From the IMG/VR virus record IMGVR_UViG_3300014205_000186, positions 1 through 64,000 of that record: a stretch of DNA of 64,000 nt; one strand, given 5' to 3'. Shown one piece after another: positions 5,882 through 43,940 of this stretch (positions within the stretch are counted from its first letter, which is position 1; each line of letters starts with the position of its first letter). Source of the stretch: a virus. Its lineage: Duplodnaviria > Heunggongvirae > Uroviricota > Caudoviricetes. A program made the translations under genes and the position numbers. The notes under the pieces were generated by a model. That model saw only the letters and a program-made list of their open reading frames with translations, ran no database searches and had not been told where the DNA came from.

Positions 5882-6070
5882 TTTTTTGAGAGGTATTCCT
5901 ACCGTCTGCTATGGCCACAGATGACTATAAATAAGGTAGGAGATTGTCGAGACGGTTCAATTCCTCTACTTCTCACTTTGCGACATTAATATAATGGTAT
6001 TATTTCTAATTTCCAATTAGACTACAAGAGTCCGATTCTCTTATGTCGCACTACTTTAACAGGAGTTTTT
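5882..6070. other. GC-richer structured intergenic region (possible sRNA or regulatory RNA)
   Basis: Inverted repeats ACCGTCT/AGACGGT, CCTACC/GGTAGG, GCGACAT...ATGTCGC and AGAG/CTCT; T-loop-like GGTTCAATTCC; local GC rise inside an AT-rich genome. Confidence 0.3.
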
Positions 6071-15522: not shown

Positions 15523-15955
15523 AGAAGAACTTAAAAAACCTAAAAATATTAAGATATTAAATTATCTGAGTAGATTGCGAGGTTTAGATAAAGACGAGAT
15601 AGAGCAGTTAAAGCTAATTACTCTTTGGAAAAGTATTAATAGTTTTAATGAAGAAAAGGGTTGCTTATTTTCTACGCATCTGTATAATACTTGTAGATAT
15701 ACCTTTCTGGACTTCTTCAAAAAAAAGCAAATTAAAACAGTTGACAATATTGATATTGCAAAGTATAATAGTGACAACATCATTGATGAACTTCCACTTC
15801 TTTATAAAACTATAATAGAAGATAGATTTGTTTATAAATTTACAATGATAGAAATGTCAGGTAAGTATAAATTACAAAGGTGGCAACTAAAGATTTTAAT
15901 TCAAGATAGTATTGATTTTCTAAAAAAAGAACTTGACAAAAGAAGGGCTAGCTAG
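15506..15955 (+). CDS. sigma-factor-like protein (sigma-70 region 2-like)
   Basis: DEIEQLKLITLWKSINSFNEEKGCLFSTHLYNTCRYTFLDFFKK resembles sigma region 2.1-2.4. Confidence 0.45.
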   Translation: MKPIFEEELKKPKNIKILNYLSRLRGLDKDEIEQLKLITLWKSINSFNEEKGCLFSTHLYNTCRYTFLDFFKKKQIKTVDNIDIAKYNSDNIIDELPLLYKTIIEDRFVYKFTMIEMSGKYKLQRWQLKILIQDSIDFLKKELDKRRAS

Positions 15956-16187
15956 TATAATGTATTATGTTCTAACAGAGAAAAGATCAGCAGTTTTTGG
16001 TGAAGGTTATTGGCACAGAATTATTGGTCCTCATGGAATGTTATTTCAAGCTTATCTTAATGAGAGTGAAGCTAATAATGTTTGTTTAGGATTAAATCAA
16101 GTTAAGAGAATTAGTGATAGAGATCTTGCTATTATTAGATCAAAAACAGAAGAAAAAAGACTAGAAAAGATTGCTAACAAATCATAA
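15933..16187 (+). CDS. hypothetical protein
   Basis: 84-aa ORF. Confidence 0.4.
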   Translation: MTKEGLASIMYYVLTEKRSAVFGEGYWHRIIGPHGMLFQAYLNESEANNVCLGLNQVKRISDRDLAIIRSKTEEKRLEKIANKS

Positions 16188-16281
16188 AAAGATTTTGACG
16201 GATTGGACTAAAGGTTATGTCGCTAGCCCTTCAAGCTGGAGAAAACGGATCGTTACCGTTATTCGTTATTAAAAAATTTAC

Positions 16282-16309
16282 TTGACAAATAAATTAACTG
16301 TGTTATAAT
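16282..16309 (+). promoter_or_regulatory. sigma70-type promoter with extended -10 (TTGACA-16nt-TGnTATAAT)
   Basis: TTGACA at 16282-16287 and TGTTATAAT at 16301-16309; preceded by hairpin AACGG(ATCGTTA)CCGTT and followed by a strong RBS TAGGAGAAAAAGT before the ATG at 16393. Confidence 0.6.
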
Positions 16310-16392
16310 AATAAAAAATCACAATCAGCAAATTAAACAAAAAATTATCCATTTTTTAAACGTGATTTGGTAATTTAACTAGGAGAAAAAGT

Positions 16393-18057
16393 ATGTTTTC
16401 AGCAAAGCAAAGTTCCTTATTAGAAAAGAATCCAAAAGTTCTGGCTAAAGCTAAGAATCAATTTCTTTTTGGCACCGCGAAAGAATCCGCAAAGACCTTA
16501 AGTGGAAATGGGAGTTTAAAATTTTCTGATTCCGGTTCAGAATGGGTTAACCAATTTACTAAGTTGGGAACATTCAAGACTCCAAGAAAATATACTGAAA
16601 TTGTTAGTGATTGTGAAACCTTATGGGCTTTAGATAAAGAATTATGCGTTAAGTTTATTCTTTATATTAGAATGATTAGTCGAAAGACCGATTTAGTTTT
16701 CTTAAATATTAAAACTACAGAAGCTCAAAGTGGAGCAGAACTAAAATATGAAGGTATTATGAGAATGGTTTGGTTGTCTCAAAAGGCACCAGATGTTTTC
16801 TGGAAAAATATTGGATTATTTATCTCTGCCGGATCTTGTAAAGATATTGTTTCTATGTTAAGATATGACCTTGTTTATCATAACTGGGATAATAAGATTT
16901 TAGATTGGGCTAGGTTTGGTAATTTAATTAAGTCTTTATTGGAAAACCCTGCTTCAGTAAACTTAATGAAGAAATATTTACCGCAAATTAAGCCTAATAA
17001 TAAGTGTACTACTGTTGAATCACAAGCTAATAATATTATTGCTAAGTGGATTTGTTCAAGTCTTTTTGGATCTAAGAATGGTTCAACTACGTATAAGCAA
17101 TACAGAAAGTTAAAGACTTCCGGAACTGCTCACGAATGGCAAAAACTTATTTCTCAACAAAAGTTTGACAGAATTGATTTTACTAAGATTCATGGTCGGG
17201 CTTTGAATTTACTTGTTAAGAGCAAGTTTTTAAAGAATCATAACTTACAAAATGTTTATTCTACTTGGATTGATAAACAAAAGACTGTAAAGTATACAGG
17301 ATTTGTTCATGAATTACTTTGTGAATTAGATTCAAACCGGGATTCTAATTTTGAAAAGACTGTCGATAAGCAATTTTTAGAACTTGTTGAAAAGGTTAAA
17401 AATGGAGAAGAAAACTTTACTAAGCTAATTGTTGTAAGAGATACTTCTGGTTCTATGAGTTCAACCGCTACTGGAACGAAGTTTTCTTGTTATAATATTG
17501 CGAAGGCTTTAGCATTATATTTTTCAGAGTTTTTAACTGGACAATTTTCTAATCATTGGATAGAATTTAATAGTAGTGCTAAGTTACATGTTTGGAAGGG
17601 TTCTGGAGCAGTAGCAAAATGGAGAAGCGATAAATCAGGTTTTGTTGGTTCAACTAACTTTCAATCTGTTGTTGATTTGTTTTGTAATATGAAAAGAAAG
17701 GGTGTTCCTGAAGAGGATTTTCCACAGGGTATTTTATGTATTAGCGATGGAGAATTCAATCCAGCACAATTAGGTAAAACAAATGTTGAAGCTGCTAGAG
17801 ATCGTTTAGCCTTAGCTGGATTTTCAAAGGAATATCAAGATAATTTCAAAATAATTCTTTGGAATCTTCAAAGTGGTTATTATGGTGTCGGAACAGGTTG
17901 TAAGTTTGAAACTTTTGGTGATGTTAAAAACGTATTTTATATGTCTGGTTATTCAGCTTCTAATGTTAAGTTTTTATTGAATCAAAAGGTAGAAACTGCT
18001 GAAGACCTGTTTAATACAGCTATGTCACAGGAATTGTTAAATTTAGTTAATGTTTAA
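16393..18057 (+). CDS. vWA/MIDAS-containing protein (TROVE/Ro60-like or DUF2828-like possibility)
   Basis: IVVRDTSGSMSS MIDAS motif near residue 345 of 554; strongest promoter and RBS in the window. Confidence 0.55.
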   Translation: MFSAKQSSLLEKNPKVLAKAKNQFLFGTAKESAKTLSGNGSLKFSDSGSEWVNQFTKLGTFKTPRKYTEIVSDCETLWALDKELCVKFILYIRMISRKTDLVFLNIKTTEAQSGAELKYEGIMRMVWLSQKAPDVFWKNIGLFISAGSCKDIVSMLRYDLVYHNWDNKILDWARFGNLIKSLLENPASVNLMKKYLPQIKPNNKCTTVESQANNIIAKWICSSLFGSKNGSTTYKQYRKLKTSGTAHEWQKLISQQKFDRIDFTKIHGRALNLLVKSKFLKNHNLQNVYSTWIDKQKTVKYTGFVHELLCELDSNRDSNFEKTVDKQFLELVEKVKNGEENFTKLIVVRDTSGSMSSTATGTKFSCYNIAKALALYFSEFLTGQFSNHWIEFNSSAKLHVWKGSGAVAKWRSDKSGFVGSTNFQSVVDLFCNMKRKGVPEEDFPQGILCISDGEFNPAQLGKTNVEAARDRLALAGFSKEYQDNFKIILWNLQSGYYGVGTGCKFETFGDVKNVFYMSGYSASNVKFLLNQKVETAEDLFNTAMSQELLNLVNV

Positions 18058-18685: not shown

Positions 18686-18714
18686 TTGACTTTATAACAA
18701 GTTAGCGTTATAAT
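18686..18714 (+). promoter_or_regulatory. sigma70-type promoter (TTGACT-17nt-TATAAT)
   Basis: TTGACT at 18686-18691, 17-nt spacer, TATAAT at 18709-18714; lies immediately upstream of a tRNA-like gene. Confidence 0.6.
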
Positions 18715-19785: not shown

Positions 19786-19849
19786 TTATAACAAATACAG
19801 AAATAGTTACAGCAAAATAAATAAAAATGCTTTTTTTGGTAAAAGAAGG

Positions 19850-19868
19850 TTCTGGTTCGATTCCAGAA
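19850..19868 (+). other. orphan tRNA T-arm-like hairpin (possible tRNA remnant)
   Basis: TTCTGG-TTCGATT-CCAGAA with a T-loop consensus, but no matching acceptor or D-arm found nearby. Confidence 0.3.
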
Positions 19869-19930
19869 TACTGATCAAAATCTGGTGAACAAAGATCAAA
19901 ATTAAACTATTTCGTTTTTAAGGATTTATT

Positions 19931-20349: not shown

Positions 20350-20958
20350 CTAAATATTTTTATTTTTTAAAACATCTTCACATAATTTATAAAAGTCTTC
20401 TAATAACATATTATTTTTAGCTTGATTAGCTTCCCTACAAGTCAAACCACAATTTTCAATAGAATTATCACCACCCCTAGAAATAGGAATTATATGATCT
20501 AAATGATATGATCTTCCATTTGATAGATTAATATCACGACCAGTAAGATAACACTTGGGATTATTACCAATCTTTTTTATAAAGTCGTTATAATTAAACA
20601 TAGATTTAATTCCCGTTTTTCTAGTATTTCTTTTAAATTGTTCAATTTTTTTAGATAATATTTTTTTAAGTTTATTTCCAGCACATTTAATATCCGTTTT
20701 ATTTTTTTGTTTTTTTAAAGTAAAACTGTTAATTTTTACAATTAAAGGATTGTTTTTTCTATTTTTTCTAGTTCTATTAAGATTTTTATCCTTTTGCCCA
20801 TTAGCACAGTGATAACAAATAGTTCCTTTTGAACATTTTAAAATTATAACAATTTCACCATAAGTCAATCCGCTATTTCGTAGTTCGAGTATTTTTGGAC
20901 CTAAATTTTTATTCATTGAATTGAACCTCCTATAATATAAATACTCTTTTTTCACCAA
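20350..20958 (-). CDS. HNH homing-type endonuclease
   Basis: C-terminal HNH motif SYHLDHIIPISRGGDNSIENCGLTCREANQAKNN; N-terminal HTH-like segment; only convincing - strand gene, embedded in the tRNA region. Confidence 0.7.
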   Translation of the reverse strand: MVKKEYLYYRRFNSMNKNLGPKILELRNSGLTYGEIVIILKCSKGTICYHCANGQKDKNLNRTRKNRKNNPLIVKINSFTLKKQKNKTDIKCAGNKLKKILSKKIEQFKRNTRKTGIKSMFNYNDFIKKIGNNPKCYLTGRDINLSNGRSYHLDHIIPISRGGDNSIENCGLTCREANQAKNNMLLEDFYKLCEDVLKNKNI

Positions 20959-21105
20959 AAGGTTTCAACCCAGCAAATATAAAATATCAATGTTTATGAT
21001 TAAAACGAAACCTGATAAGAATAATTTCTGCAACTCAAAAAATCTTTGCTTTAAAAGAAAAAAATTATTCTGATAGAAGCTTATTCAGCAATTTAATTAT
21101 CCATT

Positions 21106-21190
21106 CTAAGGAAGTAATCTAGGTTCAAATCCTAGCTAGGGTGCTTATGTATGTTTAATACCCTGGTAGTTTAATGGTAAAACTCTTAAA
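21106..21190 (+). tRNA. apparent circularly permuted tRNA gene A (3' half upstream of 5' half)
   Basis: T-arm CTAGG-TTCAAAT-CCTAG plus 3' acceptor CTAGGGT and discriminator G at 21118-21142; 17-nt spacer; then 5' acceptor ACCCTGG at 21159-21165 (7/7 pairs including one G-U), U8 A9, D-arm GTTT-AATGGTA-AAAC. Confidence 0.35.
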
Positions 21191-21273
21191 ACAAGCTTCG
21201 ATAAGATTTCATACTGCAAACCAAATATAACAACAAACGATTAATTTGTAACGTTAAAAATGAAATCTGTATA

Positions 21274-21396
21274 TAATCCCATTCAGCACAGACACAAATA
21301 AAGAACTTTTAGTTGCAGGTTCGAGTCCTGCCCTTCCCTCTTTAAATTTTTCGGGGAGGTAGCCCAATTGGCAGAGGCGAAAGTAAAAAACGGGAT
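21274..21396 (+). tRNA. apparent circularly permuted tRNA gene B (3' half upstream of 5' half)
   Basis: 3' half 21304-21338: anticodon-stem strand ACTTT, variable TAGTT, T-arm GCAGG-TTCGAGT-CCTGC, acceptor CCTTCCC; 13-nt spacer; 5' half 21352-21383: GGGGAGG (7/7 pairs), TA, D-arm GCC-CAATTGGCAGA-GGC, anticodon-stem strand AAAGT; flanking leader/trailer helix AATCCC (21274-79)/GGGATT (21391-96). Confidence 0.4.
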
Positions 21397-21416
21397 TAGT
21401 TTTAGTTTAATTTGCT

Positions 21417-23315: not shown

Positions 23316-23537
23316 ATGTCTCAAAAAGCACAGGTTATAATAGATCGTTGTAATTTTAGTGGTGTAAAATTTGATAAAGCAGCGGTAGACGCAGTACAAA
23401 GAATAGCTGATGGACTAGTAATTAATGCGGAAGCCCTGAAACAATTAGCATGGGTATTAACCGCTTCTAATGTTAAAATTGAAACACTTGTTAAAGTTGT
23501 TTGTAGTGAAGAAAATTTAGAGGAAACAGATGATTGA
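23316..23537 (+). CDS. hypothetical protein
   Basis: 73-aa ORF. Confidence 0.4.
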   Translation: MSQKAQVIIDRCNFSGVKFDKAAVDAVQRIADGLVINAEALKQLAWVLTASNVKIETLVKVVCSEENLEETDD

Positions 23538-23961
23538 GCAAATGAAAGAAGAAATTGTAAAAGCAACTAAGCAAAGAGACGATGTTAAGAAAAACATTCT
23601 CAAATTAGTTGTTTCTGAAGTACAAACTAGAGAAGCTAGGCAAAATAAGCCAATTACTCAAAAAGAGTTTGAAGGAATACTTAAGCTTTTTATAAAGAAT
23701 AACAACGAAATAATGTTCTATTCTAAAAATTCTAAAAATTCTATGAAATTAATGCAAGAAAATGCTATATTATCTTTATGGTTACCTCGCCAAGTTTCAG
23801 GAAAAGAACTTCAATCAATTGTTTCCGTTTTTACAGATAAGATTAAATCTTCAGATAATACTGGTCAAGCTATTGGTCTTGTTATTAAGGGTTTAACTGG
23901 GAATTATTCTTTTGACAATAAAGAGATTAAGAGTATAATAGAGCAGATTAGAAATGAATAA
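23530..23961 (+). CDS. hypothetical protein
   Basis: 143-aa ORF. Confidence 0.45.
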   Translation: MIEQMKEEIVKATKQRDDVKKNILKLVVSEVQTREARQNKPITQKEFEGILKLFIKNNNEIMFYSKNSKNSMKLMQENAILSLWLPRQVSGKELQSIVSVFTDKIKSSDNTGQAIGLVIKGLTGNYSFDNKEIKSIIEQIRNE

Positions 23962-24346: not shown

Positions 24347-24660
24347 AATGATGCCAACGATGTTTTTGGATATGATTGGGATAAATACAATAAAGATGAA
24401 GAAGACGAAATAAGTAATTTATATAGCAAATATGATTTAGATCCAGATGACTATGATTTTGTCTATAATAAAAATTATCACTTTGAAGATGAATTAAATA
24501 GTATTCAAAATAAATATAATCCGACTTGTAATAAAACAATTAATGGTAAGAGTTATCTTCACGGAACTTTTGGTGGACATAGAGAACATCCTTTAAAAAT
24601 TAGTAAAGAACAGATTATTGAAGCAGTTATTGAAAAAATTAAAACAATGGAAATTAAATG
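24347..24660 (+). pseudogene. coding-like open frame without an ATG start (non-canonical start, frameshifted gene or pseudogene)
   Basis: About 104 sense codons (NDANDVFGYDWDKYNKDEEDEISNLY...HREHPLKISKEQIIEAVIEKIKTMEIK) ending in ATGA overlap with the next gene; the only upstream ATG lies in the +1 frame. Confidence 0.25.
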
Positions 24661-26112
24661 AAAAAACTTAAAAAATCAGAACTACCAGATAACCATTCAT
24701 TTAATGACTTTAAGTCTTTTGGTCCACCTGCTATAAGAGACGGAGAATTTACAGGAACTAAAGTAGCAGATTTTGGATGTTTCGATAACCAAGGCCGCGA
24801 TAGTAATAAATATTATCACGCAGCTATTTGTCAGTCTACTATAAATAATAAATGGTTTGTGTATGTCCAATTTGGTCGTACTGGAAATTCTAAATATGAT
24901 TTTCAATTTTTTGATTGTGATTCTGAACAAGACGCTCAAAAAGCGTATGAGAAACAATGTCATTCTAAAAACGACAAAAGGGGTGAGTGGTATCAGCATC
25001 CACAATTAGGTAAAATCTTAAGAGCTAAAGCTGGAAAAGATTGTTACTTAACTAGGTCTTTTGCTAGTAGAATATCAGCTTTACCAGATGTAGCTAGAAT
25101 ATCTACTAAGAAAATGGTTAAATCTTCGCAATTTGATCCACAAACAGAAACTTTACTTAGAGATTTACAAACCGGAACAGTATCTTATACAAAAAACAAA
25201 TTTTCTTCAGGTATAATTCCTGATTTAGATTCTATTAATCAAGCTAGAACAATTCTTTCTTTAGCAGCTAAAACTAAAAAAGATGACGAACTTACAGAAT
25301 TAACAAAGATTCTTTATAGTAAAATCCCTAAATCTACTTATATAGGTGAAAAAGTAGAATTATCTTCTGAAAATATTAAATCTTGGTATGATGACCTAGA
25401 CGCTTTTGAATCAGCTTTCTCTTCGTTAGAAGACGGATTTGAAAACGTATCTATTAAATACTTATTAAAATATATTGACAAATCAAACCAGTTGTGGTAT
25501 AATATAGAAAGATTAGTGCAGTCTTCAACAAGAGATAGACACGCATATATTCCTGGAAAAATCAAAATTGAACATATTTGGGAGATTACTAATGTTCCTA
25601 AATCGTTTTTAGATGAACAGGAAAGAATTGCTAAAGAGTTTAAAGGAATTGGTTTCCCGTTAATTTTTCAGCCAGAAAGAACAGAATTAGAGAAAAGGTC
25701 GAATTGTCAGCTACTAATACACGGTTCTCGTAGTTGCAATATTGGAGGTATTATTTCTACTGGTTTTAGACTTCCTAAAGATTTAAGCGGAGTAGCTATT
25801 AATGGGGCAAATTTAGGACCAGGAGCGTATCATGCTTCAGATTATAAAAAGTCTGCTGGTTATTGTTCTATTAAAAATGGTTATTGGTCTAGTGGTTCTG
25901 GATCTATTTCTAATAGAAAAGCTTTTATATTTTTAAATGATGTTATTCTTGGTAATCCACACGTTGTAAGTAGACCGCAGGGATTTAATAAACCGCCAGT
26001 AGGCTATCATAGTGTTATAGCAGATACTAAAGGAAGCTTTCAAAATGAAGAATTTGTTGTTTTTTCAGTAGAGCGTTTTTATCCTAGGTTTTTAATAGAA
26101 TTCGATCTTTAG
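24658..26112 (+). CDS. PARP-like ADP-ribosyltransferase (WGR domain + PARP catalytic domain)
   Basis: WGR-like KWFVYVQFGRTGNSKYDFQFFDCDSEQDAQKAYEKQ; catalytic H-Y-E elements LLIHGSRS, GPGAYHASD, NEEFVVFSVERFYPRFLIEF. Confidence 0.7.
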   Translation: MKKLKKSELPDNHSFNDFKSFGPPAIRDGEFTGTKVADFGCFDNQGRDSNKYYHAAICQSTINNKWFVYVQFGRTGNSKYDFQFFDCDSEQDAQKAYEKQCHSKNDKRGEWYQHPQLGKILRAKAGKDCYLTRSFASRISALPDVARISTKKMVKSSQFDPQTETLLRDLQTGTVSYTKNKFSSGIIPDLDSINQARTILSLAAKTKKDDELTELTKILYSKIPKSTYIGEKVELSSENIKSWYDDLDAFESAFSSLEDGFENVSIKYLLKYIDKSNQLWYNIERLVQSSTRDRHAYIPGKIKIEHIWEITNVPKSFLDEQERIAKEFKGIGFPLIFQPERTELEKRSNCQLLIHGSRSCNIGGIISTGFRLPKDLSGVAINGANLGPGAYHASDYKKSAGYCSIKNGYWSSGSGSISNRKAFIFLNDVILGNPHVVSRPQGFNKPPVGYHSVIADTKGSFQNEEFVVFSVERFYPRFLIEFDL

Positions 26113-28968: not shown

Positions 28969-30111
28969 ATGCAACAGAAAAATAATGGATTTACTTTAGT
29001 GGAATTATTGGTTGTAATAGCTATTATTGGAATTTTAGTAGGATTACTATTACCAGCAGTACAAGCCGCTAGAGAAGCAGCAAGGCGAATGCAATGTTCA
29101 AATAACTTAAAACAAATAGGATTAGGTGTTCATAATTTTGAATCATCTTATAAGAAAACTCCATCAGCAGGACAATGTGGTTCAACTGGTTCTACAACAA
29201 CTCCTTATATGATTCATTCAACAGCTACTCAGTTATTACCATATATTGAACAAACAAGTATTTATAATTTATTTGATCATAATACTATACCATTTACTTT
29301 ATATGGTGCCACAAAGGTTGGAAATAATTATGTTTCATCAACTGGTTGTGTGTTACACCCAAATGCTAAAGGTTTAGCTTATGACGATCCTAATCATCCA
29401 AACGGACAAGTAGCAGCAAAAAGTCATATTTCAACATTTGTTTGTCCAACAACTCCGTTAGGTAAAGAGGGAAGAGATCCTTCTGGATATGGTGGATGGG
29501 ATTATATGTTTATTGACCTAACAGATATTATGGAAAATCAAACAAGTCCGCTTTTTGGAACTAGAACAACTCCTGTTGGAGGTACTTTATGGACTTCTCA
29601 AGTAAAAAAGGGAATGCTAACTTGTGATAATACTGGTTTTGGATCTGTTACAGATGGTTTAAGTAATACAATTTTATGTGTTGAAGACGCTGGTAGAGCC
29701 GCTCCTGGAGTTGCAACTTTTGGCGCTCTATCATCTAGAAAAACACCTGTTCCAAATCCAGTAGATATGATTCAAATGATTAATGGTAGTCATGGTAGAA
29801 GAATGCACGCTTGGGCTGATGCTGACGCTGTTACAAATGGTTTTAGCGGTCCTAGTAATTCTACTGGAAATAAAGCCGCAAAAGTAAACAATAGTAAATT
29901 ACCTATTGGTGGACCACCAGAATGCAGATGGAGTTTAAATAATTGCGGGCCTAATGATGAACCTTTTAGTTTTCATAACGGTGGTATTAATTGTGTTATG
30001 GGAGACGGTGCAGTTAAATTTATTGCAGATTCAGTAGACGCTATTTCTTTAAAGTGGACTGTATCTGGTTCTGATGGAAATATTGTAGATATAGATAAGG
30101 TTATTAATTAA
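28969..30111 (+). CDS. DUF1559 protein with prepilin-type N-terminal cleavage/methylation domain (Planctomycetes-type pseudopilin-like)
   Basis: N-terminus [51 protein letters not shown]; C-terminus [24 protein letters not shown]; both are hallmark DUF1559 signatures. Confidence 0.8.
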
Positions 30112-33860: not shown

Positions 33861-36800
33861 ATGTATACATACGAAGAAGCATTAAATAACAGTATTAAAT
33901 ATTTTAATGGAAATGAATTATCAGCAAAAGTATTTTTAGATAAATATGCGTTAAGAGATAGTAATAATAAGATTCTGGAAGATACTCCAGATAAAATGCA
34001 TAGAAGATTAGCTAAAGAATTTGCTAGAATAGAAAAAAATAAGTTTGAAAAGCCACTGAACGAAGAAGAAATATATACTTTATTTAAAAATTTTTCTCAT
34101 ATAATTCCTCAAGGTTCTCCATGTTTTGCTATAGGTAATAACTATCAAATAGCTAGTGCTAGTAATTGTTTTGTTTTAGAGTCTCCGGAAGATAGTTATG
34201 GCGGGATTTGTAAAACTGATGAAGAATTAGTCCAAATATCTAAAAGGCGTGGTGGTGTCGGTATAGACTTATCTAAATTAAGACCAAAAGGATCAGCCAC
34301 AAATAATTCTTCTAGATCATCTACCGGAATAAAATCTTGGATGACTAGATATTCAAATAGTATTAGAGAAGTTGGTCAATCTGGTCGTCGTGGCGCACTT
34401 ATGTTAACAGTTAGCGTTCATCATCCAGATATACTTGATTTTATTACTGCTAAAAATAACGGAATAGATATTACAGGGGCAAATATTTCTGTTAGATTAA
34501 CAGATGAATTTTTAAAAGCTGTAGAAAATAATAAAGAATATGAACTAAGGTTTCCAGTTGATTCTAAAAATGTTGTTAAAACAATTTCCGCAAACGAAAT
34601 ATGGAATTTAATTATTGATAACGCTTGGTCTAGAGCAGAACCAGGAATATTATTTTGGGATAACATATTAAAAGAATCTATTCCAGATTGTTACGAAGAA
34701 TATAAAACTATTAGTACGAACCCATCCTTAAGAAAAGGAACGTTGATTTTAACTAGTGAAGGACCAAGAAGAATTGAAACTTTAGAAAATTCTGAATTTC
34801 AAGTCTATAATTTAAACCATTCTTATTCTAAGGCTGTTTGTAAATTATCAGGAAAAAATCAAGAATTATACGAAGTAGAACTATCAAGTTGTTTTAAGTA
34901 TTATGCCACAAAAGAACATAGATGGGCAACTAATAATGGAGAAAAAACAACTTTAGAATTGTTACCCGGTGATAAAATTCCAATCCTTAAAAAGGACAAA
35001 GTTTTTAATGGTAATTTAGGAACAAGAGAAGACGGATTTTTAATAGGTTGGTTTTTAGGTGATGGATGGTTAACTGTTAGAAAAGATAACAATAAAAATC
35101 AATATGGATTTATAATTTCAGAAAAAGATAAAAATAGTAAAATTGGTGATATTATTTTATCTAAATTAAGACAAATAGGATTCAATGGCGAATGGATAGA
35201 AAGAAGTAGAGAAAATGCAATTTGGTATGAAATTAATACACAAAATAGTAAACTAGAAGATTATTTTAATTTATTTTATAATCCATGTAAAAATAAAGGT
35301 ATATCAAAAGAACTATTAGAAAAATCTTCCGAAGAATTTATAAAAGGTTTAGTTGATGGATATTTATCTTCAGATGGAAGTATTGATGAAAAAAGACAAA
35401 AAATAACTTTTGTATCAAAAAATAAAAAACTTTTAGAAGATTTTTCTGAAATTTTTGGTTTTTATGGAATTAGAAGTTCGATTAGATCTTCAGAATCTAA
35501 ATCTAGTTTTCCTAATGGTAAAAATTATAATAAAAAATATAAAAGAAACGATCTATATATATCCGATTCAGACTCAATAAAGCATTTTCAAAAATTGTTT
35601 AATTTATCATTAGATTATAAAGAAGAAAAATTAAGAAAAATGCTTGTTAGAAAATCTAATAATATAAATTACGTAAAAGTAAAAAATGTTAATAAAACAG
35701 ATCTAAAAGAAGACGTTTGGGATATTACCGTTAATGATAATAATAATTGTTTTAGTTTAAGTCATTGTATAACCCATAATTGTGGAGAAATTACTCTTAG
35801 TGCTAATGATAGTTGTCGTTTATTAGTTATTAATTTAATGAATTTTGTTAGATATCCATTTGATTCTAATGCATATTTTGATTTTATGGAATTTTATCAA
35901 TCTGCTCAAATAGCACAAAGATTAATGGATGATATTGTTGATTTAGAATTAGAAAAAATAGATACTATAATTCAAAAGATAAAAAAAGATCCAGAAGATA
36001 TTCTTTTAAAAAGAACAGAATTAAATTTATGGCAAAATATTGAAAGGGCTTGTGAATTTGGTAGAAGAACAGGTTTGGGGATTACTGCTTTAGGTGATAC
36101 TATTGCAGCTTGTGGTATTAAATATGGTTCTGATGAAAGTATAGAATTTACAGAAAAGGTTTATAAAACTTTAAAATTTGGCTCTTATAGATCTTCCGTA
36201 GATATGTCTAAAGAGCTTGGGTCATTTCCAGCTTGGAATTGGGAAAACGAAAAAAATAATCCTTTTCTATTAAGAATTAAAAATGAATTTCTATATTTAG
36301 CCCAAGAAGATTTATTTGAAGTACCTTTTCCATATGATTCATTATTAAACGGAGAAGATTTATATAACGATATAGCTAAATATGGTCGTAGAAATATAGC
36401 TAATTTAACTACTGCTCCAGTTGGTTCTTTATCTATTCTAGCATCGTATTTAATTTCCTTAAAAAGATTATTTAATACTACATCTGGAATAGAACCTTTA
36501 TATAGCTGGAAACCGTTTACTAAACGTAAAAAGGGAAACCCTGGTGATAATGATTTTAGAACCGATTTTATAGATCAAAGTGGGGATCATTGGATGGATT
36601 TTGATGTTTTTCATAGCGGTATTACAGCTTTTTTAAATAAAAATCCTGGTTCAACTGTAGAAGATTCTCCTTATTATGGTGGAAGCGCAGAAGAAATAGT
36701 TTGGACACAAAGAGTTAAATTACAAGCCGCCGCTCAAAAACACGTAGATCATAGTATTTCTAGTACTGTTAATTTACCCGAAAATGTTTCTAAAGAAGAA

Positions 36801-37397
36801 GTCGATAAAATATATCGAGAAGCATGGAAAAGTGGGTGTAAAGGGATTACAGTATATAGAGACGGTTGTAGAACCGGGGTCTTAATTAAAAAAGAAGAAA
36901 AACTTGCTTTAACTAATGCTACAAAAAGACCAAAATCATTATCTTGTGATATTTATAACATTTCGGTAACTAATAATAAATATACTGTTGTTGTTGGTTT
37001 ACTTAACGGAAATCCTTACGAAGTATTTTGTGTAGCTAATTTTATTGATAAACATAAACATGGAGAACTTGTTAAGGCTGGTAAAGGGAAATATGTTATT
37101 AAGACAACAGACGGAGAGTTAGAATTATCAGATTATTTAGAAGATGATACTCAAAATGCTCTATTAAGAATGGTTTCTACAAGTTTAAGACATGGTGCTA
37201 GTATTAAGTTTGTGATAGAACAGTTACAGAAAACTAAAGGTGATCTAACTAGTTTTACTAAGTGTGTTGCTAGAGCGCTTAAAAAGTATATTCAAGATGG
37301 TGATGGTTCTAGTGAGAAGTGCGAATGTGGAAATCAGCTTATCTATCAAGAAGGCTGTTTAACTTGTAAAAGTTGTGGCTATAGCAAATGTAATTAA
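33861..37397 (+). CDS. nrdJ: class II (adenosylcobalamin-type, NrdJ-like) ribonucleotide reductase interrupted by an intein
   Basis: Extein motif TNP|CGEITL split by a 352-aa insertion; C-terminal Zn ribbon CECGN...CLTCKSCGY; RNR-like conserved blocks. Confidence 0.8.
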   Translation: MYTYEEALNNSIKYFNGNELSAKVFLDKYALRDSNNKILEDTPDKMHRRLAKEFARIEKNKFEKPLNEEEIYTLFKNFSHIIPQGSPCFAIGNNYQIASASNCFVLESPEDSYGGICKTDEELVQISKRRGGVGIDLSKLRPKGSATNNSSRSSTGIKSWMTRYSNSIREVGQSGRRGALMLTVSVHHPDILDFITAKNNGIDITGANISVRLTDEFLKAVENNKEYELRFPVDSKNVVKTISANEIWNLIIDNAWSRAEPGILFWDNILKESIPDCYEEYKTISTNPSLRKGTLILTSEGPRRIETLENSEFQVYNLNHSYSKAVCKLSGKNQELYEVELSSCFKYYATKEHRWATNNGEKTTLELLPGDKIPILKKDKVFNGNLGTREDGFLIGWFLGDGWLTVRKDNNKNQYGFIISEKDKNSKIGDIILSKLRQIGFNGEWIERSRENAIWYEINTQNSKLEDYFNLFYNPCKNKGISKELLEKSSEEFIKGLVDGYLSSDGSIDEKRQKITFVSKNKKLLEDFSEIFGFYGIRSSIRSSESKSSFPNGKNYNKKYKRNDLYISDSDSIKHFQKLFNLSLDYKEEKLRKMLVRKSNNINYVKVKNVNKTDLKEDVWDITVNDNNNCFSLSHCITHNCGEITLSANDSCRLLVINLMNFVRYPFDSNAYFDFMEFYQSAQIAQRLMDDIVDLELEKIDTIIQKIKKDPEDILLKRTELNLWQNIERACEFGRRTGLGITALGDTIAACGIKYGSDESIEFTEKVYKTLKFGSYRSSVDMSKELGSFPAWNWENEKNNPFLLRIKNEFLYLAQEDLFEVPFPYDSLLNGEDLYNDIAKYGRRNIANLTTAPVGSLSILASYLISLKRLFNTTSGIEPLYSWKPFTKRKKGNPGDNDFRTDFIDQSGDHWMDFDVFHSGITAFLNKNPGSTVEDSPYYGGSAEEIVWTQRVKLQAAAQKHVDHSISSTVNLPENVSKEEVDKIYREAWKSGCKGITVYRDGCRTGVLIKKEEKLALTNATKRPKSLSCDIYNISVTNNKYTVVVGLLNGNPYEVFCVANFIDKHKHGELVKAGKGKYVIKTTDGELELSDYLEDDTQNALLRMVSTSLRHGASIKFVIEQLQKTKGDLTSFTKCVARALKKYIQDGDGSSEKCECGNQLIYQEGCLTCKSCGYSKCN
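34725..35780 (+). mobile_element. LAGLIDADG-type intein inside the RNR gene (352 aa)
   Basis: Begins with Ser after TNP, ends ...SHCITHN followed by Cys+1; two LAGLIDADG motifs GWFLGDGWL and LVDGYLSSDGS. Confidence 0.75.
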
Positions 37398-43447: not shown

Positions 43448-43940
43448 TGATAAAATTAATCTTTTAAGAGAATTACTATCTGATGACGATGTTAGAGAAA
43501 CGTTAAAAAAGATTTTATTAGAAGACCGTCCTAAAAAAGCGGTTAAAAAGAAAACTGTAACAAGCCCAAAGACTAAAGTAAAAGCAGTAGTTAAAAAGAC
43601 TACTACTAGAAAACCAAGAGTTAAGAAGCAGGAAGAACAAGAAAATTTTAAAACTAACAAGGTTGATAAATACTCAAAAGATTATGGAAGAAGTCACTTT
43701 GTTGATAATTTAACAGAAGCTCTTGAAGAAGAAGTTGAAGGTAAAAAAATAAATTTAATAGCAGAAAGTAAGAAGTTATCTAAGATAGCTAAAAAGAAAC
43801 CAAAGCAGATTAGACCTAAAAAGACTTTAAGTAAATTAAAATGTACTCAGTGTAATAAACACTTTTTTGGTGTAGGTGGATATTTGTGTGATAATTGTTT
43901 GAAAGGTAAAAACCCAGAGGATAAATTTAATGCTGAGTGA
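43440..43940 (+). CDS. basic Lys-rich protein with C-terminal zinc ribbon (probable DNA-binding)
   Basis: KKAVKKKTVTSPKTKVKAVVKKTTTRKPRVKK; CTQCNKHF...CDNC. Confidence 0.45.
   Translation: MDNDKINLLRELLSDDDVRETLKKILLEDRPKKAVKKKTVTSPKTKVKAVVKKTTTRKPRVKKQEEQENFKTNKVDKYSKDYGRSHFVDNLTEALEEEVEGKKINLIAESKKLSKIAKKKPKQIRPKKTLSKLKCTQCNKHFFGVGGYLCDNCLKGKNPEDKFNAE

What the first reader, a model, noticed from the sequence alone, without database searches (positions are those of the whole stretch)
21100..21400. Two adjacent apparent circularly permuted tRNA genes (3' half encoded upstream of the 5' half)
Element B: ACTTT-TAGTT-GCAGG-TTCGAGT-CCTGC-CCTTCCC-T (T-arm plus 3' acceptor) is followed after 13 nt by GGGGAGG-TA-GCC...GGC-G-AAAGT. 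GGGGAGG pairs 7/7 with CCTTCCC (one G-U), and AAAGT pairs perfectly with the upstream ACTTT. The two halves thus form a complete acceptor stem, D-arm, anticodon stem and T-arm only if the RNA is read in permuted order. A leader/trailer helix AATCCC/GGGATT flanks the unit, as expected for BHB-type processing of permuted pre-tRNAs. Element A shows the same layout: T-arm CTAGG-TTCAAAT-CCTAG plus CTAGGGT, a 17-nt spacer, then ACCCTGG-TA-GTTT-AATGGTA-AAAC, with a 7/7 acceptor and flanking AAGCTT/AAGCTT pairing. Permuted tRNAs are known from a red alga, some green algae and an archaeon. They are not known from phage, as far as I am aware. I could not derive the anticodons cleanly, which keeps confidence moderate.
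Basis: seen in the sequence. Interest (0 to 1): 0.8.

Follow-up and report, generated by a model that had tools for sequence, protein, structure and literature searches.

The report
Phage Y-RNA-like tRNA mimics, not permuted tRNAs
The two "back-to-front tRNAs" are real, but they are the tRNA-mimicking inserts of two small RNAs in a tandem array that most likely partners with a phage protein shaped like the Ro60 autoantigen. This is a divergent, undescribed version of the known Ro60/Y-RNA system, not a new way of encoding tRNAs.

Summary
At 21076-21199 (A) and 21274-21398 (B) a T-arm and 3' acceptor strand precede the 5' acceptor strand and D-arm, enclosed by an outer helix.

The interpretation as circularly permuted tRNA genes with BHB processing is not supported. 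This order (T-arm, loop-closed acceptor stem, D-arm) is the known tRNA-like domain of bacterial and phage YrlA-type Y RNAs.

- **Array:** A and B are units 3 and 5 of a five-unit head-to-tail array (20960-21398) with GATA linkers. Each unit has a 7-9-bp terminal stem followed by an ACAGCAA-type motif. Units 1, 2 and 4 carry no tRNA-like insert.
- **Family membership:** Covariance models built only from other phages find B (72.8 bits), A (51.3), U2 (54.2), U4 (31.0) and U1 (26.6).
- **Conservation:** 80 tRNA-like and 144 simple units occur in 77 of 87 loci. All lie on the strand of, and a median of about 0.7 kb from, a 554-aa DUF2828/DUF7788 gene (window 16393-18057).
- **Structure:** Covariation is strong (acceptor stem 96% paired), but there is no conserved anticodon loop.

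This is a new variant of a known kind: a divergent Ro-like protein, a new RNA motif and multi-unit arrays. Binding and function are inferred.

The parts
16282..16309 (+). Consensus sigma-70 promoter (TTGACA, 16 nt, TGnTATAAT) driving unit U0 and the Ro-like gene
   Evidence: 12/12 match with TG-extended -10. It ends about 7 nt before the first base of U0.
16316..16368 (+). Unit U0: simple Y-like unit (stem AAAUCAC.., motif AUCAGCAAAUU) forming the 5' leader of the Ro-like mRNA
   Evidence: Model R2 31.6 bits, E 6e-6 locally. Sequence. Followed by AGGAG and the ATG at 16393.
16393..18057 (+). Ro60-like protein (554 aa; DUF2828/DUF7788; helical ring plus vWA domain with complete MIDAS motif), the proposed protein partner
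19800..19913 (+). Isolated unit with canonical UUACAGCAAAAU motif, 9-bp terminal stem and a T-arm-only insert
   Evidence: Unit finder. R2 partial hit 20 bits. The MFE fold recovers the terminal stem and T-arm, z -2.76. Sequence.
20960..21013 (+). Array unit U1 (simple): AGGUUUC...GAAACCU, motif CCCAGCAAAU
   Evidence: R2 26.6 bits, E 9e-5 locally. Unit finder.
21018..21071 (+). Array unit U2 (simple): AGAAUAAUU...AAUUAUUCU, motif UCUGCAAC
   Evidence: R2 54.2 bits, E 3e-10.
21076..21199 (+). Weak inner stem (about 3-4 bp; its register differs between ARAGORN and model R1). T-arm 21119-21135. Acceptor stem 21136-21142 / 21160-21166, closed by G73 plus a 16-nt loop. D-arm 21169-21183.
   Evidence: R1 51.3 bits, E 1e-9, full model. 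MFE fold. Parse.
21204..21268 (+). Array unit U4 (simple): AGAUUUCAU...AUGAAAUCU, motif ACUGCAAA
   Evidence: R2 31.0 bits, E 9e-5 over the whole window; 31.1 bits, E 8e-6 locally.
21274..21398 (+). Inner stem ACUUU/AAAGU. T-arm 21315-21331. Acceptor stem 21332-21338 / 21353-21359, closed by U73 plus a 13-nt loop. D-arm 21362-21378.
   Evidence: R1 72.8 bits, E 1e-14. Rfam YrlA 28.5 bits, E 4e-4, over model positions 23-85. MFE fold.

Best explanation
A and B are two members of a tandem array of small Y-RNA-like non-coding RNAs. They most likely serve a phage-encoded, structurally Ro60-like protein (DUF2828/DUF7788, window 16393-18057).

Each unit is closed by a 7-9-bp helix between its 5' and 3' ends. 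The 5' strand of that helix is followed at once by a single-stranded A-C-A-G-C-A-A-(A)-U motif. Together these are proposed to be the protein-binding site, in the position that the terminal stem and CGAA bulge occupy in classical Y RNAs.

The rest of each unit is a variable 'effector' module. In A and B it is a tRNA-like domain: inner stem, variable region, T-arm, 7-bp acceptor stem closed by a loop, U8-A9, and D-arm. This can fold into a tRNA L-shape without an anticodon loop.

The units are probably transcribed as a precursor and separated at the 4-nt GAUA linkers. A and B have 13-16-nt closing loops, N73 and C74, so they may additionally be cut by RNase P and receive CCA, as M. smegmatis YrlA does.

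By analogy with Ro60/Y RNA/PNPase particles, including the Thermus phage phiLo system, the RNP would redirect or block host RNA-decay, tRNA-processing or repair enzymes during infection.

Shown here: architecture, family membership, covariation, strand and neighbourhood linkage to the protein, and the protein's fold.

Inferred: protein-RNA binding, processing sites, partners and biological role.
For: 1. YrlA signal. Rfam YrlA is the best hit over B. Full-length YrlA matches lie in the homologous arrays of relatives: L002 43.9 bits, L001 33.4 bits, L006 39.4 bits, and Enterococcus phage phiSHEF16 47.4 bits. Chen et al. 2014 (PMC4201824) describe exactly this T-arm / acceptor-like stem-loop / D-arm order in Y RNAs next to Ro60 in more than 250 bacteria and phages.

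2. Independent models. Models seeded without window sequences find A, B, U1, U2, U4 and U0.

3. Distribution. There are 80 tRNA-like hits and 144 simple hits, all 224 on the strand of the Ro-like gene. 77 of 87 loci have at least one hit, at a median distance of about 0.7 kb.

4. Covariation. T-arm 98.9% paired, acceptor stem 96.1% with compensatory changes at all 7 pairs, D-arm 93.8%, inner stem 73.3%. Slid controls give 39-46%, and 0 of 500 shuffles reach the observed percentage of paired cells or covariation score.

5. Terminal stem. It is 94.9% paired against 30-45% when slid. In a non-circular flank-permutation test, a helix of at least 7 bp is present in 91% of hits against 10% with permuted partners.

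6. Motif logo over 214 array units: A .82, C .98, A .92, G, C, A, A .99, A .64, U .70. GATA linkers occur 89 times.

8. Linkage across great distance. The pairing holds in a cultured cyanophage (five-unit array starting 8 nt after the stop codon), in Listeria phage LP-064 (protein 24% identical, three ACAGCAA units just upstream, RtcB ligase 1.3 kb away), in Enterococcus phiSHEF16 (R1 hits of 64 and 61 bits upstream) and in a Felixounavirus.

9. Co-transcription. In the window a 12/12 promoter drives a unit plus the Ro-like ORF as one transcript.

10. Precedent. Thermus phage phiLo Ro60 binds phage Yrl RNAs, and with a Yrl RNA and host PNPase it formed a ternary complex in vitro (PMC12135203).
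Against: - No experiment shows that the protein binds these RNAs or that the RNAs are expressed.
- The protein is not detectably related to Ro60 by sequence. Pfam TROVE is not hit, and a family profile against PDB sequences finds nothing. The fold match has TM 0.4-0.5 and about 10% identity.
- The classical Ro60-binding motif GNCGAAN0-1G is replaced by ACAGCAA.
- Rfam YrlA scores (28-47 bits) are all below the gathering score of 69.
- In the window the array lies 2.9 kb from the gene, not adjacent to it. Four of the five array motifs deviate from the consensus.
- No promoter was found directly upstream of the array.
- The window encodes no PNPase, RtcB or RNA ligase among the ORFs scanned.
- Positions corresponding to tRNA 37-38 keep an R-A bias (81% and 84%). 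The tRNA ancestry is therefore recent enough that some decoding-related role cannot be formally excluded.
Confidence: 0.8

Rival explanations
1. True circularly permuted tRNA genes. The transcript is cut and ligated at the leader/trailer junction to give a circular intermediate. The acceptor-end spacer is then removed, yielding functional decoding tRNAs (for example Trp-CCA from A).
For: The permuted layout is real. The acceptor stems are 7 bp and are followed by a discriminator. A has A1-U72 and G73, as bacterial tRNA-Trp does (own knowledge). Positions 37-38 show an R-A bias across the family. RtcB and RNA ligases are encoded near the homologous locus in Listeria phage LP-064.
Against: There is no BHB geometry, and the host context is bacterial. 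U33 is present in only 49% of members and Y32 in 57%. The ARAGORN call survives 200 of 200 scrambles of the putative anticodon region. The inner stem is only 73% paired, and its two outer pairs about 58%. Eighteen relatives have closing loops of 3-8 nt. The same scaffold carries non-tRNA inserts in 144 units. The window has no RNA ligase among the ORFs scanned. The Rfam tRNA model does not score the locus beyond a spurious 17.8-bit hit spanning A's 5' half and B's 3' half.
Confidence: 0.03
2. The scaffolded tRNA-like RNAs act independently of the Ro-like protein. They could be tRNA decoys or sponges for host anticodon nucleases and other tRNA-targeting defences, or for tRNA-modifying enzymes. 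In that case the terminal stem and ACAGCAA motif would serve only processing or stability.
For: The arrays sit inside phage tRNA gene clusters in all lineages examined. The tRNA-like modules vary in acceptor sequence and even in topology (normal-order inserts in L028, L044 and L051), as expected for a panel of mimics. In the window the array is 2.9 kb from the protein gene.
Against: Most units (133 of 214 in arrays) have no tRNA-like insert yet keep the stem and motif. The motif-bearing units track the DUF2828 gene across phages whose proteins are only 24% identical, and they are co-transcribed with it in the window. Nothing excludes both roles operating together.
Confidence: 0.12
3. Degenerate remnants of tRNA genes, broken by insertion of the adjacent HNH homing endonuclease or by recombination, with no function.
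For: An HNH endonuclease gene ends next to the array (20350-20958). The window motifs are less canonical than the family consensus.
Against: Eighty homologous units in 56 loci keep all four helices through hundreds of compensatory changes (574 cells). Most of these loci show no HNH gene nearby. Both halves always occur in the same order inside a conserved scaffold.
Confidence: 0.01
4. Two-piece (permuted) tmRNA-like genes, which also encode the 3' acceptor/T-arm piece upstream of the 5' piece.
For: There are weak partial hits to permuted tmRNA models over the homologous unit in L002 (beta_tmRNA 26.8 bits, tmRNA_permuted 18.1 bits).
Against: Those scores are far below the gathering thresholds (84 and 47). 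ARAGORN finds no tmRNA. The units are only about 125 nt, with no pseudoknots or tag reading frame. A full D-stem is present, unlike in tmRNA. Related phages carry separate bona fide tmRNAs (L032, L086).
Confidence: 0.01

Closest known systems
YrlA-type bacterial/phage Y RNAs with Ro60 (Rsr); Rfam RF02553; Chen et al. 2014 (PMC4201824); Thermus phage phiLo Ro60-Yrl (PMC12135203)
   Same: - A small RNA closed by a 5'/3' terminal stem.
- A conserved single-stranded motif next to the 5' strand of that stem.
- An internal tRNA-like domain in the order T-arm, loop-closed acceptor-like stem, D-arm. The near-invariant D-arm sequence GCUCAGUUGGUAGAGC matches.
- Encoded beside, and on the strand of, a ring-plus-vWA protein with a Ro60 fold.
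- Several different Y RNAs per locus.
- Located near tRNA and RNA-repair genes.
   Different: - The protein belongs to DUF2828/DUF7788, not Pfam TROVE. It is related to Ro60 only at the fold level.
- The motif is ACAGCAA(AU) instead of GNCGAAN0-1G.
- Units form head-to-tail arrays of up to 9 with fixed GAUA linkers.
- Most units lack the tRNA-like domain.
- Acceptor stems are a full 7 bp in most members.
- Rfam scores are below the gathering threshold.
Circularly permuted tRNA genes (Cyanidioschyzon merolae, some green algae, Thermofilum pendens; own knowledge of Soma et al. 2007 and Chan et al. 2011)
   Same: The 3' half (T-arm and 3' acceptor strand) is encoded upstream of the 5' half (5' acceptor strand and D-arm). 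A short intervening sequence joins the acceptor ends, and leader and trailer pair with each other.
   Different: There is no BHB motif, no conserved anticodon loop and no splicing endonuclease context. The break lies at 31/32 with 30-40 extra nucleotides. The scaffold is shared with non-tRNA units and is linked to a Ro-like protein.
Dictyostelium Class I RNAs (Rfam RF01414; PMC7919456)
   Same: The simple units are 50-65 nt with a short terminal stem joining the 5' and 3' ends. A conserved motif containing (UU)ACAGCAA follows the 5' strand directly, the interior is variable, and U-G follows the stem. Rfam scores are 20-39 bits (the authors used 25 bits or more plus a stem as their candidate criterion).
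   Different: All scores are below the Rfam gathering score of 41.5. The context is phage arrays rather than dispersed eukaryotic genes with a DUSE promoter. The only named direct binder in Dictyostelium is an RRM protein (Rnp1A). Whether Dictyostelia encode a DUF2828 protein could not be tested here. The resemblance may be convergent or due to chance.
Two-piece (permuted) tmRNA
   Same: Permuted order of the tRNA-like acceptor and T-arm pieces.
   Different: No mRNA-like domain or pseudoknots. A full D-arm is present. The units are far shorter. No model reaches its threshold.

Membership tests
YrlA / bacterial Y RNA (RF02553) | tRNA-like domain in the order T-arm, acceptor-like stem-loop, D-arm, enclosed by a stem | tested here: met
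   cmscan aligns B to YrlA model positions 23-85. The R1 structure is supported by covariation: T-arm 98.9%, acceptor stem 96.1%, D-arm 93.8% paired.
YrlA / bacterial Y RNA (RF02553) | Terminal helix formed by the 5' and 3' ends | tested here: met
   7-bp helices in A and B. Family-wide, a helix of at least 7 bp occurs in 91% against 10% with permuted flanks. 94.9% paired with compensatory changes.
YrlA / bacterial Y RNA (RF02553) | Conserved GNCGAAN0-1G (CGAA) Ro60-binding motif beside the terminal stem | tested here: not met
   The equivalent position holds A-C-A-G-C-A-A-(A)-U (logo). B contains GGCGAAAG, but within the D-stem/inner stem, where the family consensus is not CGAA.
YrlA / bacterial Y RNA (RF02553) | Reaches Rfam's gathering score (69 bits) | tested here: not met
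   B scores 28.5 bits and A gives no hit. Relatives score 29-47 bits.
YrlA / bacterial Y RNA (RF02553) | Encoded next to a Ro60/Rsr orthologue | tested here: inconclusive
YrlA / bacterial Y RNA (RF02553) | Bound by Ro60 in vivo | not testable with these tools
   Needs immunoprecipitation or EMSA.
Circularly permuted tRNA gene | 3' half upstream of 5' half, with acceptor ends joined by an intervening sequence | tested here: met
   Sequence layout.
Circularly permuted tRNA gene | Bulge-helix-bulge motif (3-nt bulge, 4-bp helix, 3-nt bulge) formed by leader and trailer at the junction | tested here: not met
   The helix is 7-9 bp. In A and B the flanking single strands are 24 nt on one side and 4-7 nt on the other.
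Circularly permuted tRNA gene | Complete anticodon stem-loop (5-bp stem, Y32, U33, R37) after joining | tested here: not met
   U33 is present in 49% and Y32 in 57%, against 91% and 95% in real tRNAs. The inner stem is 73% paired. ARAGORN's anticodon call is insensitive to scrambling.
Circularly permuted tRNA gene | Host has a tRNA-splicing endonuclease (archaeal/eukaryotic) | not testable with these tools
   The host is unknown. All indicators are bacterial: sigma-70 promoters, a Shine-Dalgarno site, a cyanophage relative.
Ro60 / TROVE protein | Ring of helical repeats plus C-terminal vWA domain with MIDAS motif | tested here: met
Ro60 / TROVE protein | Sequence membership in Pfam TROVE | tested here: not met
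   Only DUF7788 is hit, even at E<=10. A profile against PDB sequences finds no Ro60.
Dictyostelium Class I RNA (RF01414) | Reaches Rfam's gathering score (41.5 bits), with terminal stem and 11-nt motif | tested here: not met
   Window units score 25-26 bits. The best relative scores 39.3 bits (L083). The stem and the ACAGCAA core are present.

The most novel reading that the evidence does not exclude
DUF2828/DUF7788 proteins are present in hundreds of cultured phages (Felix-O1-like, Listeria P100-like, Enterococcus, Campylobacter, cyanophages) and, according to Pfam, in eukaryotes. They could be a second, unrecognised branch of the Ro60 family with its own class of partner RNAs. Those RNAs would be defined by a terminal stem plus an ACAGCAA motif and encoded as programmable arrays whose inserts, including tRNA mimics, select different targets. 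In the boldest version, the Dictyostelium Class I RNAs share the same stem-plus-(UU)ACAGCAA architecture and are currently thought unique to social amoebae. They would then be the eukaryotic members of this RNA class, which would point to a Ro-like partner and function for them.
Probability: 0.3. Interest if true: 0.8.

Novelty: new variant of a known kind. Interest (0 to 1): 0.55.

Why it matters
- It removes an apparent exception. Phage genomes here do not encode permuted tRNAs, and the report shows how such calls arise from Y-RNA tRNA mimics.
- It assigns a probable role to a large domain-of-unknown-function family. DUF2828/DUF7788 has more than 2000 homologues in the protein search and occurs in 328 GenBank phages, yet no functional literature was found.
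- It defines a previously unannotated RNA family: 224 units in 77 loci, absent from Rfam 15. The family has a sharp motif and a modular array organisation.
- Members occur in cultured phages of Listeria, Enterococcus, E. coli and a cyanobacterium. Binding, processing (RNase P/CCA) and infection phenotypes are therefore directly testable.
- It extends the Ro60/Y-RNA paradigm of RNA quality control, PNPase tethering and tRNA mimicry to a much wider set of viruses.

Tried and rejected
1. Standard tRNA detection gave nothing at the locus (ARAGORN, Rfam tRNA).
2. ARAGORN on the in-silico rejoined halves calls them only with an intron allowed. The scramble control shows the call is uninformative.
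3. blastn of the locus against GenBank phages found no nucleotide relatives, only a ligase fragment.
4. Sequence search of the 554-aa protein and of its family profile against PDB sequences found no Ro60. Only the fold comparison worked.
The taxonomic spread of the fold, including Dictyostelium, could therefore not be checked.
6. MAFFT alignments of whole units left the 3' strands ragged. I modelled the core (R1) and the linker-anchored short units (R2) separately, and tested the terminal stem of tRNA-like units by flank permutation.
7. My naive stem-plus-motif finder has a high single-unit background (897 on the plus strand, 552 on the minus strand, 427 in shuffled sequence). Only arrays and covariance-model hits were used as evidence.
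8. The promoter scan around the array shows no excess and no convincing promoter directly upstream of 20960.
9. Other readings were considered and rejected. Permuted tmRNA fails on sub-threshold scores and the lack of a tag. A CRISPR-like or retron-like array fails because only a 7-9-nt motif is shared and there is no cas or RT gene. Hammerhead or other self-cleaving ribozymes are not supported, because no Rfam ribozyme hit appears even at E<=10.
10. The paper listing the four Class I RNA-associated proteins (Avesson 2011) is not in the library.
Full report
**1. The observation**

Element B reads as follows:
- UAAUCCC, then AUUCAGCAC plus 16 nt.
- ACUUU, then UAGUU.
- GCAGG-UUCGAGU-CCUGC (T-arm).
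- CCUUCCC, then U, then a 13-nt loop, then GGGGAGG.
- UA, the D-arm, G, AAAGU, AAAAAAC, and GGGAUUA.

Element A has the same plan:
- Terminal helix GAAGCUU/AAGCUUC.
- T-arm CUAGG-UUCAAAU-CCUAG.
- Acceptor stem CUAGGGU/ACCCUGG, closed by G plus 16 nt.
- D-arm GUUU-AAUGGUA-AAAC.

Both acceptor stems pair 7/7 with one G-U. ARAGORN and the Rfam tRNA model at its gathering threshold find three to four ordinary tRNAs elsewhere in the window but nothing here.

**2. First test of the permuted-tRNA idea**

I rejoined the halves in tRNA order. ARAGORN rejects them as plain tRNAs. It accepts them only with an 'intron' of 31-36 nt placed 5' of the anticodon loop, calling Trp(cca) for A and Phe(aaa) for B.

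This is not evidence for a tRNA. After scrambling the entire region between the two strands of the inner stem, ARAGORN still called a tRNA in 200 of 200 trials for each element, with arbitrary anticodons. The program is responding only to the acceptor, D- and T-arms.

**3. The lead: Y RNA**

A permissive Rfam scan gave YrlA ('Y RNA-like', RF02553) as the best hit over B. It scored 28.5 bits (E 4e-4) and aligned to model positions 23-85. Those positions are an enclosing stem, T-arm, loop-closed stem and D-arm.

Chen et al. 2014 (PMC4201824) showed that bacterial and phage Y RNAs encoded next to Ro60 contain just such a tRNA-like domain. [quoted passage not shown] They also showed that M. smegmatis YrlA, which has a 7-bp 'acceptor', is cleaved by RNase P and receives CCA in vivo.

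The 'permuted' order is therefore a known property of a known RNA class, including in phages.

**4. A Ro60-like protein is encoded 2.9 kb upstream**

- ORF 16393-18057 (554 aa) hits only Pfam DUF7788. It also hits phrog_850, annotated 'RNA-binding protein', over its full length at 4e-34.
- It has more than 2000 homologues, all unnamed or labelled DUF2828.
- An AlphaFold model built from a 41-sequence alignment is confident (pLDDT 83.7, pTM 0.83).
- Foldseek against the PDB returns Ro60 as the three best hits, each aligned over nearly the full length (E 2e-6 to 9e-6). All other hits cover only the vWA domain.
- The MIDAS residues D350-x-S-x-S354, T421 and D452 are invariant in the family.
- Sequence methods do not see the relationship. 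Pfam TROVE is not hit, and a family profile against PDB sequences finds no Ro60.
- The protein is therefore a Ro60 structural homologue from a different sequence family.

**5. A and B are two units of an array**

Relatives of the protein gene were fetched from assemblies and IMG/VR, giving 82 loci. In L001 the region downstream of the gene is a run of at least 7 units. Each unit has this plan:
- A 5' strand of 7-9 nt.
- The motif (U)ACAGCAAAU.
- A variable insert.
- The complementary 3' strand, followed by GAUA.

The window obeys the same grammar:
- U1 20960-21013.
- U2 21018-21071.
- U3 (= A) 21076-21199.
- U4 21204-21268.
- U5 (= B) 21274-21398.
- The linkers are GATA, GATA, GATA and GTATA.

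Two more units lie outside the array:
- One at 19800-19913 has a canonical UUACAGCAAAAU motif and a T-arm-only insert.
- One at 16316-16368 sits between a 12/12 TG-extended sigma-70 promoter (16282-16309) and the ribosome-binding site of the Ro-like ORF. A Y-like unit is thus the 5' leader of the Ro-like mRNA.

**6. Formal family tests**

*Model R1.* This covers the span from the motif to the inner stem (21 base pairs) and was seeded with 11 units from other phages. In the window it finds B at 72.8 bits and A at 51.3 bits. Across the window plus 82 loci it finds 80 hits at E<=1e-3, all on the strand of the Ro-like gene.

Pair counts on that alignment:

| Helix | Cells paired |
|---|---|
| T-arm | 98.9% |
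| Acceptor stem | 96.1% (both-sided changes at all 7 pairs) |
| D-arm | 93.8% |
| Inner stem | 73.3% |
| Slid controls | 39-46% |

None of 500 shuffles reached the observed percentage of paired cells or covariation score.

The terminal helix was not part of R1, so I tested it separately. A helix of at least 7 bp forms between a hit's own flanks in 91% of cases, against 10% when the flanks are permuted between hits.

*Model R2.* This models the short units, with the GATA linkers as anchors, and was seeded with 14 units. In the window it finds U2 (54.2 bits), U0 (31.6), U4 (31.0) and U1 (26.6). Elsewhere it finds 144 hits, all on the gene's strand. Their terminal stem is 94.9% paired, against 30-45% when slid.

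*Linkage.* 77 of 87 loci have at least one hit, at a median of about 0.7 kb from the gene.

*Motif.* The logo over 214 array units is A .82, C .98, A .92, G, C, A, A .99, A .64, U .70. Units begin with AG in 144 of the 214. The linker is GATA in 89 cases.

**7. Why these are not decoding tRNAs**

- Across 76 distinct R1 members, the 7 nt preceding the inner stem have T at 'position 33' in 49% and a pyrimidine at '32' in 57%. In 419 real tRNAs from the same loci the figures are 91% and 95%.
- An R-A bias at '37-38' (81% and 84%) looks like a trace of tRNA ancestry.
- The inner stem is short and variable.
- Of the 40 parsed relatives with a perfect 7/7 acceptor stem, 18 close it with a loop of only 3-8 nt.
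- The outer helix does not have BHB geometry.
- The context is bacterial.
- The same scaffold carries inserts with no tRNA features. A few units carry tRNA-like modules in normal order (L028, L044, L051).
- The long-loop subclass, to which A and B belong, has C at the base after the discriminator in 18 of 22 members, against 1 of 18 in short-loop members. This fits RNase P and CCA-type processing of the acceptor end as documented for M. smegmatis YrlA. That step is inference.

**8. Breadth**

tblastn finds the protein in 328 GenBank phages.
- The closest is Leptolyngbya phage Lbo-JY46 (45% identity). It has an unannotated five-unit array starting 8 nt after the stop codon.
- Listeria phage LP-064 (24% identity) has three ACAGCAA units directly upstream of its 'DUF2828' gene. 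It also has an RtcB-like ligase 1.3 kb downstream and a putative RNA ligase about 4.1 kb downstream.
- Enterococcus phage phiSHEF16 has R1 hits of 63.7 and 60.9 bits directly upstream of its gene.
- A Felixounavirus has one hit of 37.3 bits.
- In all of these the locus lies within the phage tRNA cluster.
- This persistence across very distant phages is the strongest, though still indirect, argument that the protein and the RNA scaffold work together.

**9. Mechanism and comparison with what is known**

The closest known system is Ro60 with YrlA-type Y RNAs, including the phage cases. Those are mycobacteriophages, CcrColossus, Bacillus phage G, and Thermus phage phiLo. In phiLo, Ro60 binds two Yrl RNAs through a CGAA bulge and, with a Yrl RNA and host PNPase, formed a ternary (RYPER-like) complex in vitro (PMC12135203).

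The present system works like that one in layout, but it fails three membership criteria:
- The CGAA motif is absent.
- The Rfam gathering score is not reached.
- The protein is not a TROVE family member by sequence.

It also differs in its array organisation. I therefore file it as a new variant of a known kind.

No paper in the searchable library links DUF2828/DUF7788 to Ro60 or describes these RNAs. That library is incomplete, so prior description elsewhere cannot be excluded.

**10. A resemblance noted but not established**

The simple units score 20-39 bits on Rfam's Dictyostelium Class I RNA model, whose gathering score is 41.5. They share its defining architecture: a short terminal stem and a motif containing (UU)ACAGCAA directly after the 5' strand (PMC7919456). 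Class I RNAs are reported to be unique to Dictyostelia.

I could not test whether Dictyostelia encode a DUF2828 protein, because AFDB was unavailable. This remains a lead only.

**11. Verdict**

Confidence is about 0.8 for this identity. Confidence is lower for the specific function, which rests on analogy.

Noticed in passing
window 20960-21071, 21204-21268; L083 6923-7274; many loci: The simple (non-tRNA-like) units share the architecture and core motif of Dictyostelium Class I RNAs: a terminal stem followed by (UU)ACAGCAA. They score 20-39 bits on RF01414, whose gathering score is 41.5. Class I RNAs are reported as unique to social amoebae.
   Followed up: partly
L028 9989-10102; L044 2935-3050; L051 4528-4642: Some scaffold units carry a tRNA-like insert in NORMAL order (D-arm, anticodon arm with a 7-nt loop, T-arm) instead of the permuted order. 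The scaffold therefore hosts tRNA-derived modules in more than one topology.
   Followed up: no
window 24658-26112: A 484-aa protein with WGR and PARP catalytic domains (poly/mono-ADP-ribosyltransferase-like). It is conserved next to the ligase and YqeY genes in relative L001.
   Followed up: no
window 23530-23961 (also L001 6158-6601, L002 103-543): A YqeY/GatB-C-terminal-like ORF, a domain type associated with tRNA binding, recurs near the Ro-like gene in related phages.
   Followed up: no
window 33861-37397 and 43930-46326: The ribonucleotide reductase large subunit and the DnaB-like helicase both appear to be interrupted by inteins with LAGLIDADG endonuclease domains.
   Followed up: no
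window 28969-30111: A protein with a DUF1559 domain and a prepilin-type N-terminal methylation motif. To my knowledge this family is greatly expanded in Planctomycetota, so it is a possible host hint. The closest cultured phage relative infects a cyanobacterium.
   Followed up: no
L001 17966-18039; L002 9704-9779: Related phages encode tRNAs with a CUA anticodon (ARAGORN labels them 'tRNA-Pyl'). These are amber-suppressor-like tRNAs and could indicate stop-codon reassignment or suppression.
   Followed up: no
L084 (Listeria phage LP-064) 3297-3848, 7681-8892, 10452-11338: A ROOL-like large RNA (87.4 bits, just under the gathering score of 99.1) lies about 1 kb upstream of the DUF2828 gene. An RtcB-like ligase and a putative RNA ligase lie downstream. 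Together this looks like an RNA-repair neighbourhood resembling the bacterial rsr-yrl-rtcBA operon.
   Followed up: partly
L032 9922-10281; L086 911-1261; L076 13812-14539: Phage-encoded tmRNAs lie next to the arrays (in L032 starting about 110 nt after the last unit). Two group I introns occur in L076.
   Followed up: no
window 15933-15961, 16282-16309, 18686-18714: There are two perfect (12/12) and one 11/12 sigma-70 consensus promoters on the + strand. They lie upstream of tRNA-Glu, of the U0 unit plus Ro-like gene, and of tRNA-Tyr. They are likely strong host-RNA-polymerase promoters.
   Followed up: partly
window 5980-6050 and 16196-16269: The two tRNA finders disagree. Only Rfam reports a tRNA at 5980-6050 (58.9 bits). 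Only ARAGORN reports tRNA-Glu at 16196-16269.
   Followed up: no
window 20350-20958 (- strand): The listed HNH endonuclease ORF starts at a TTG at 20958, abutting the array. A better start is probably the ATG at 20916, which is preceded by AGGAGG. That would leave a TATAAT box (20931-20936) on the + strand just upstream of the array.
   Followed up: no
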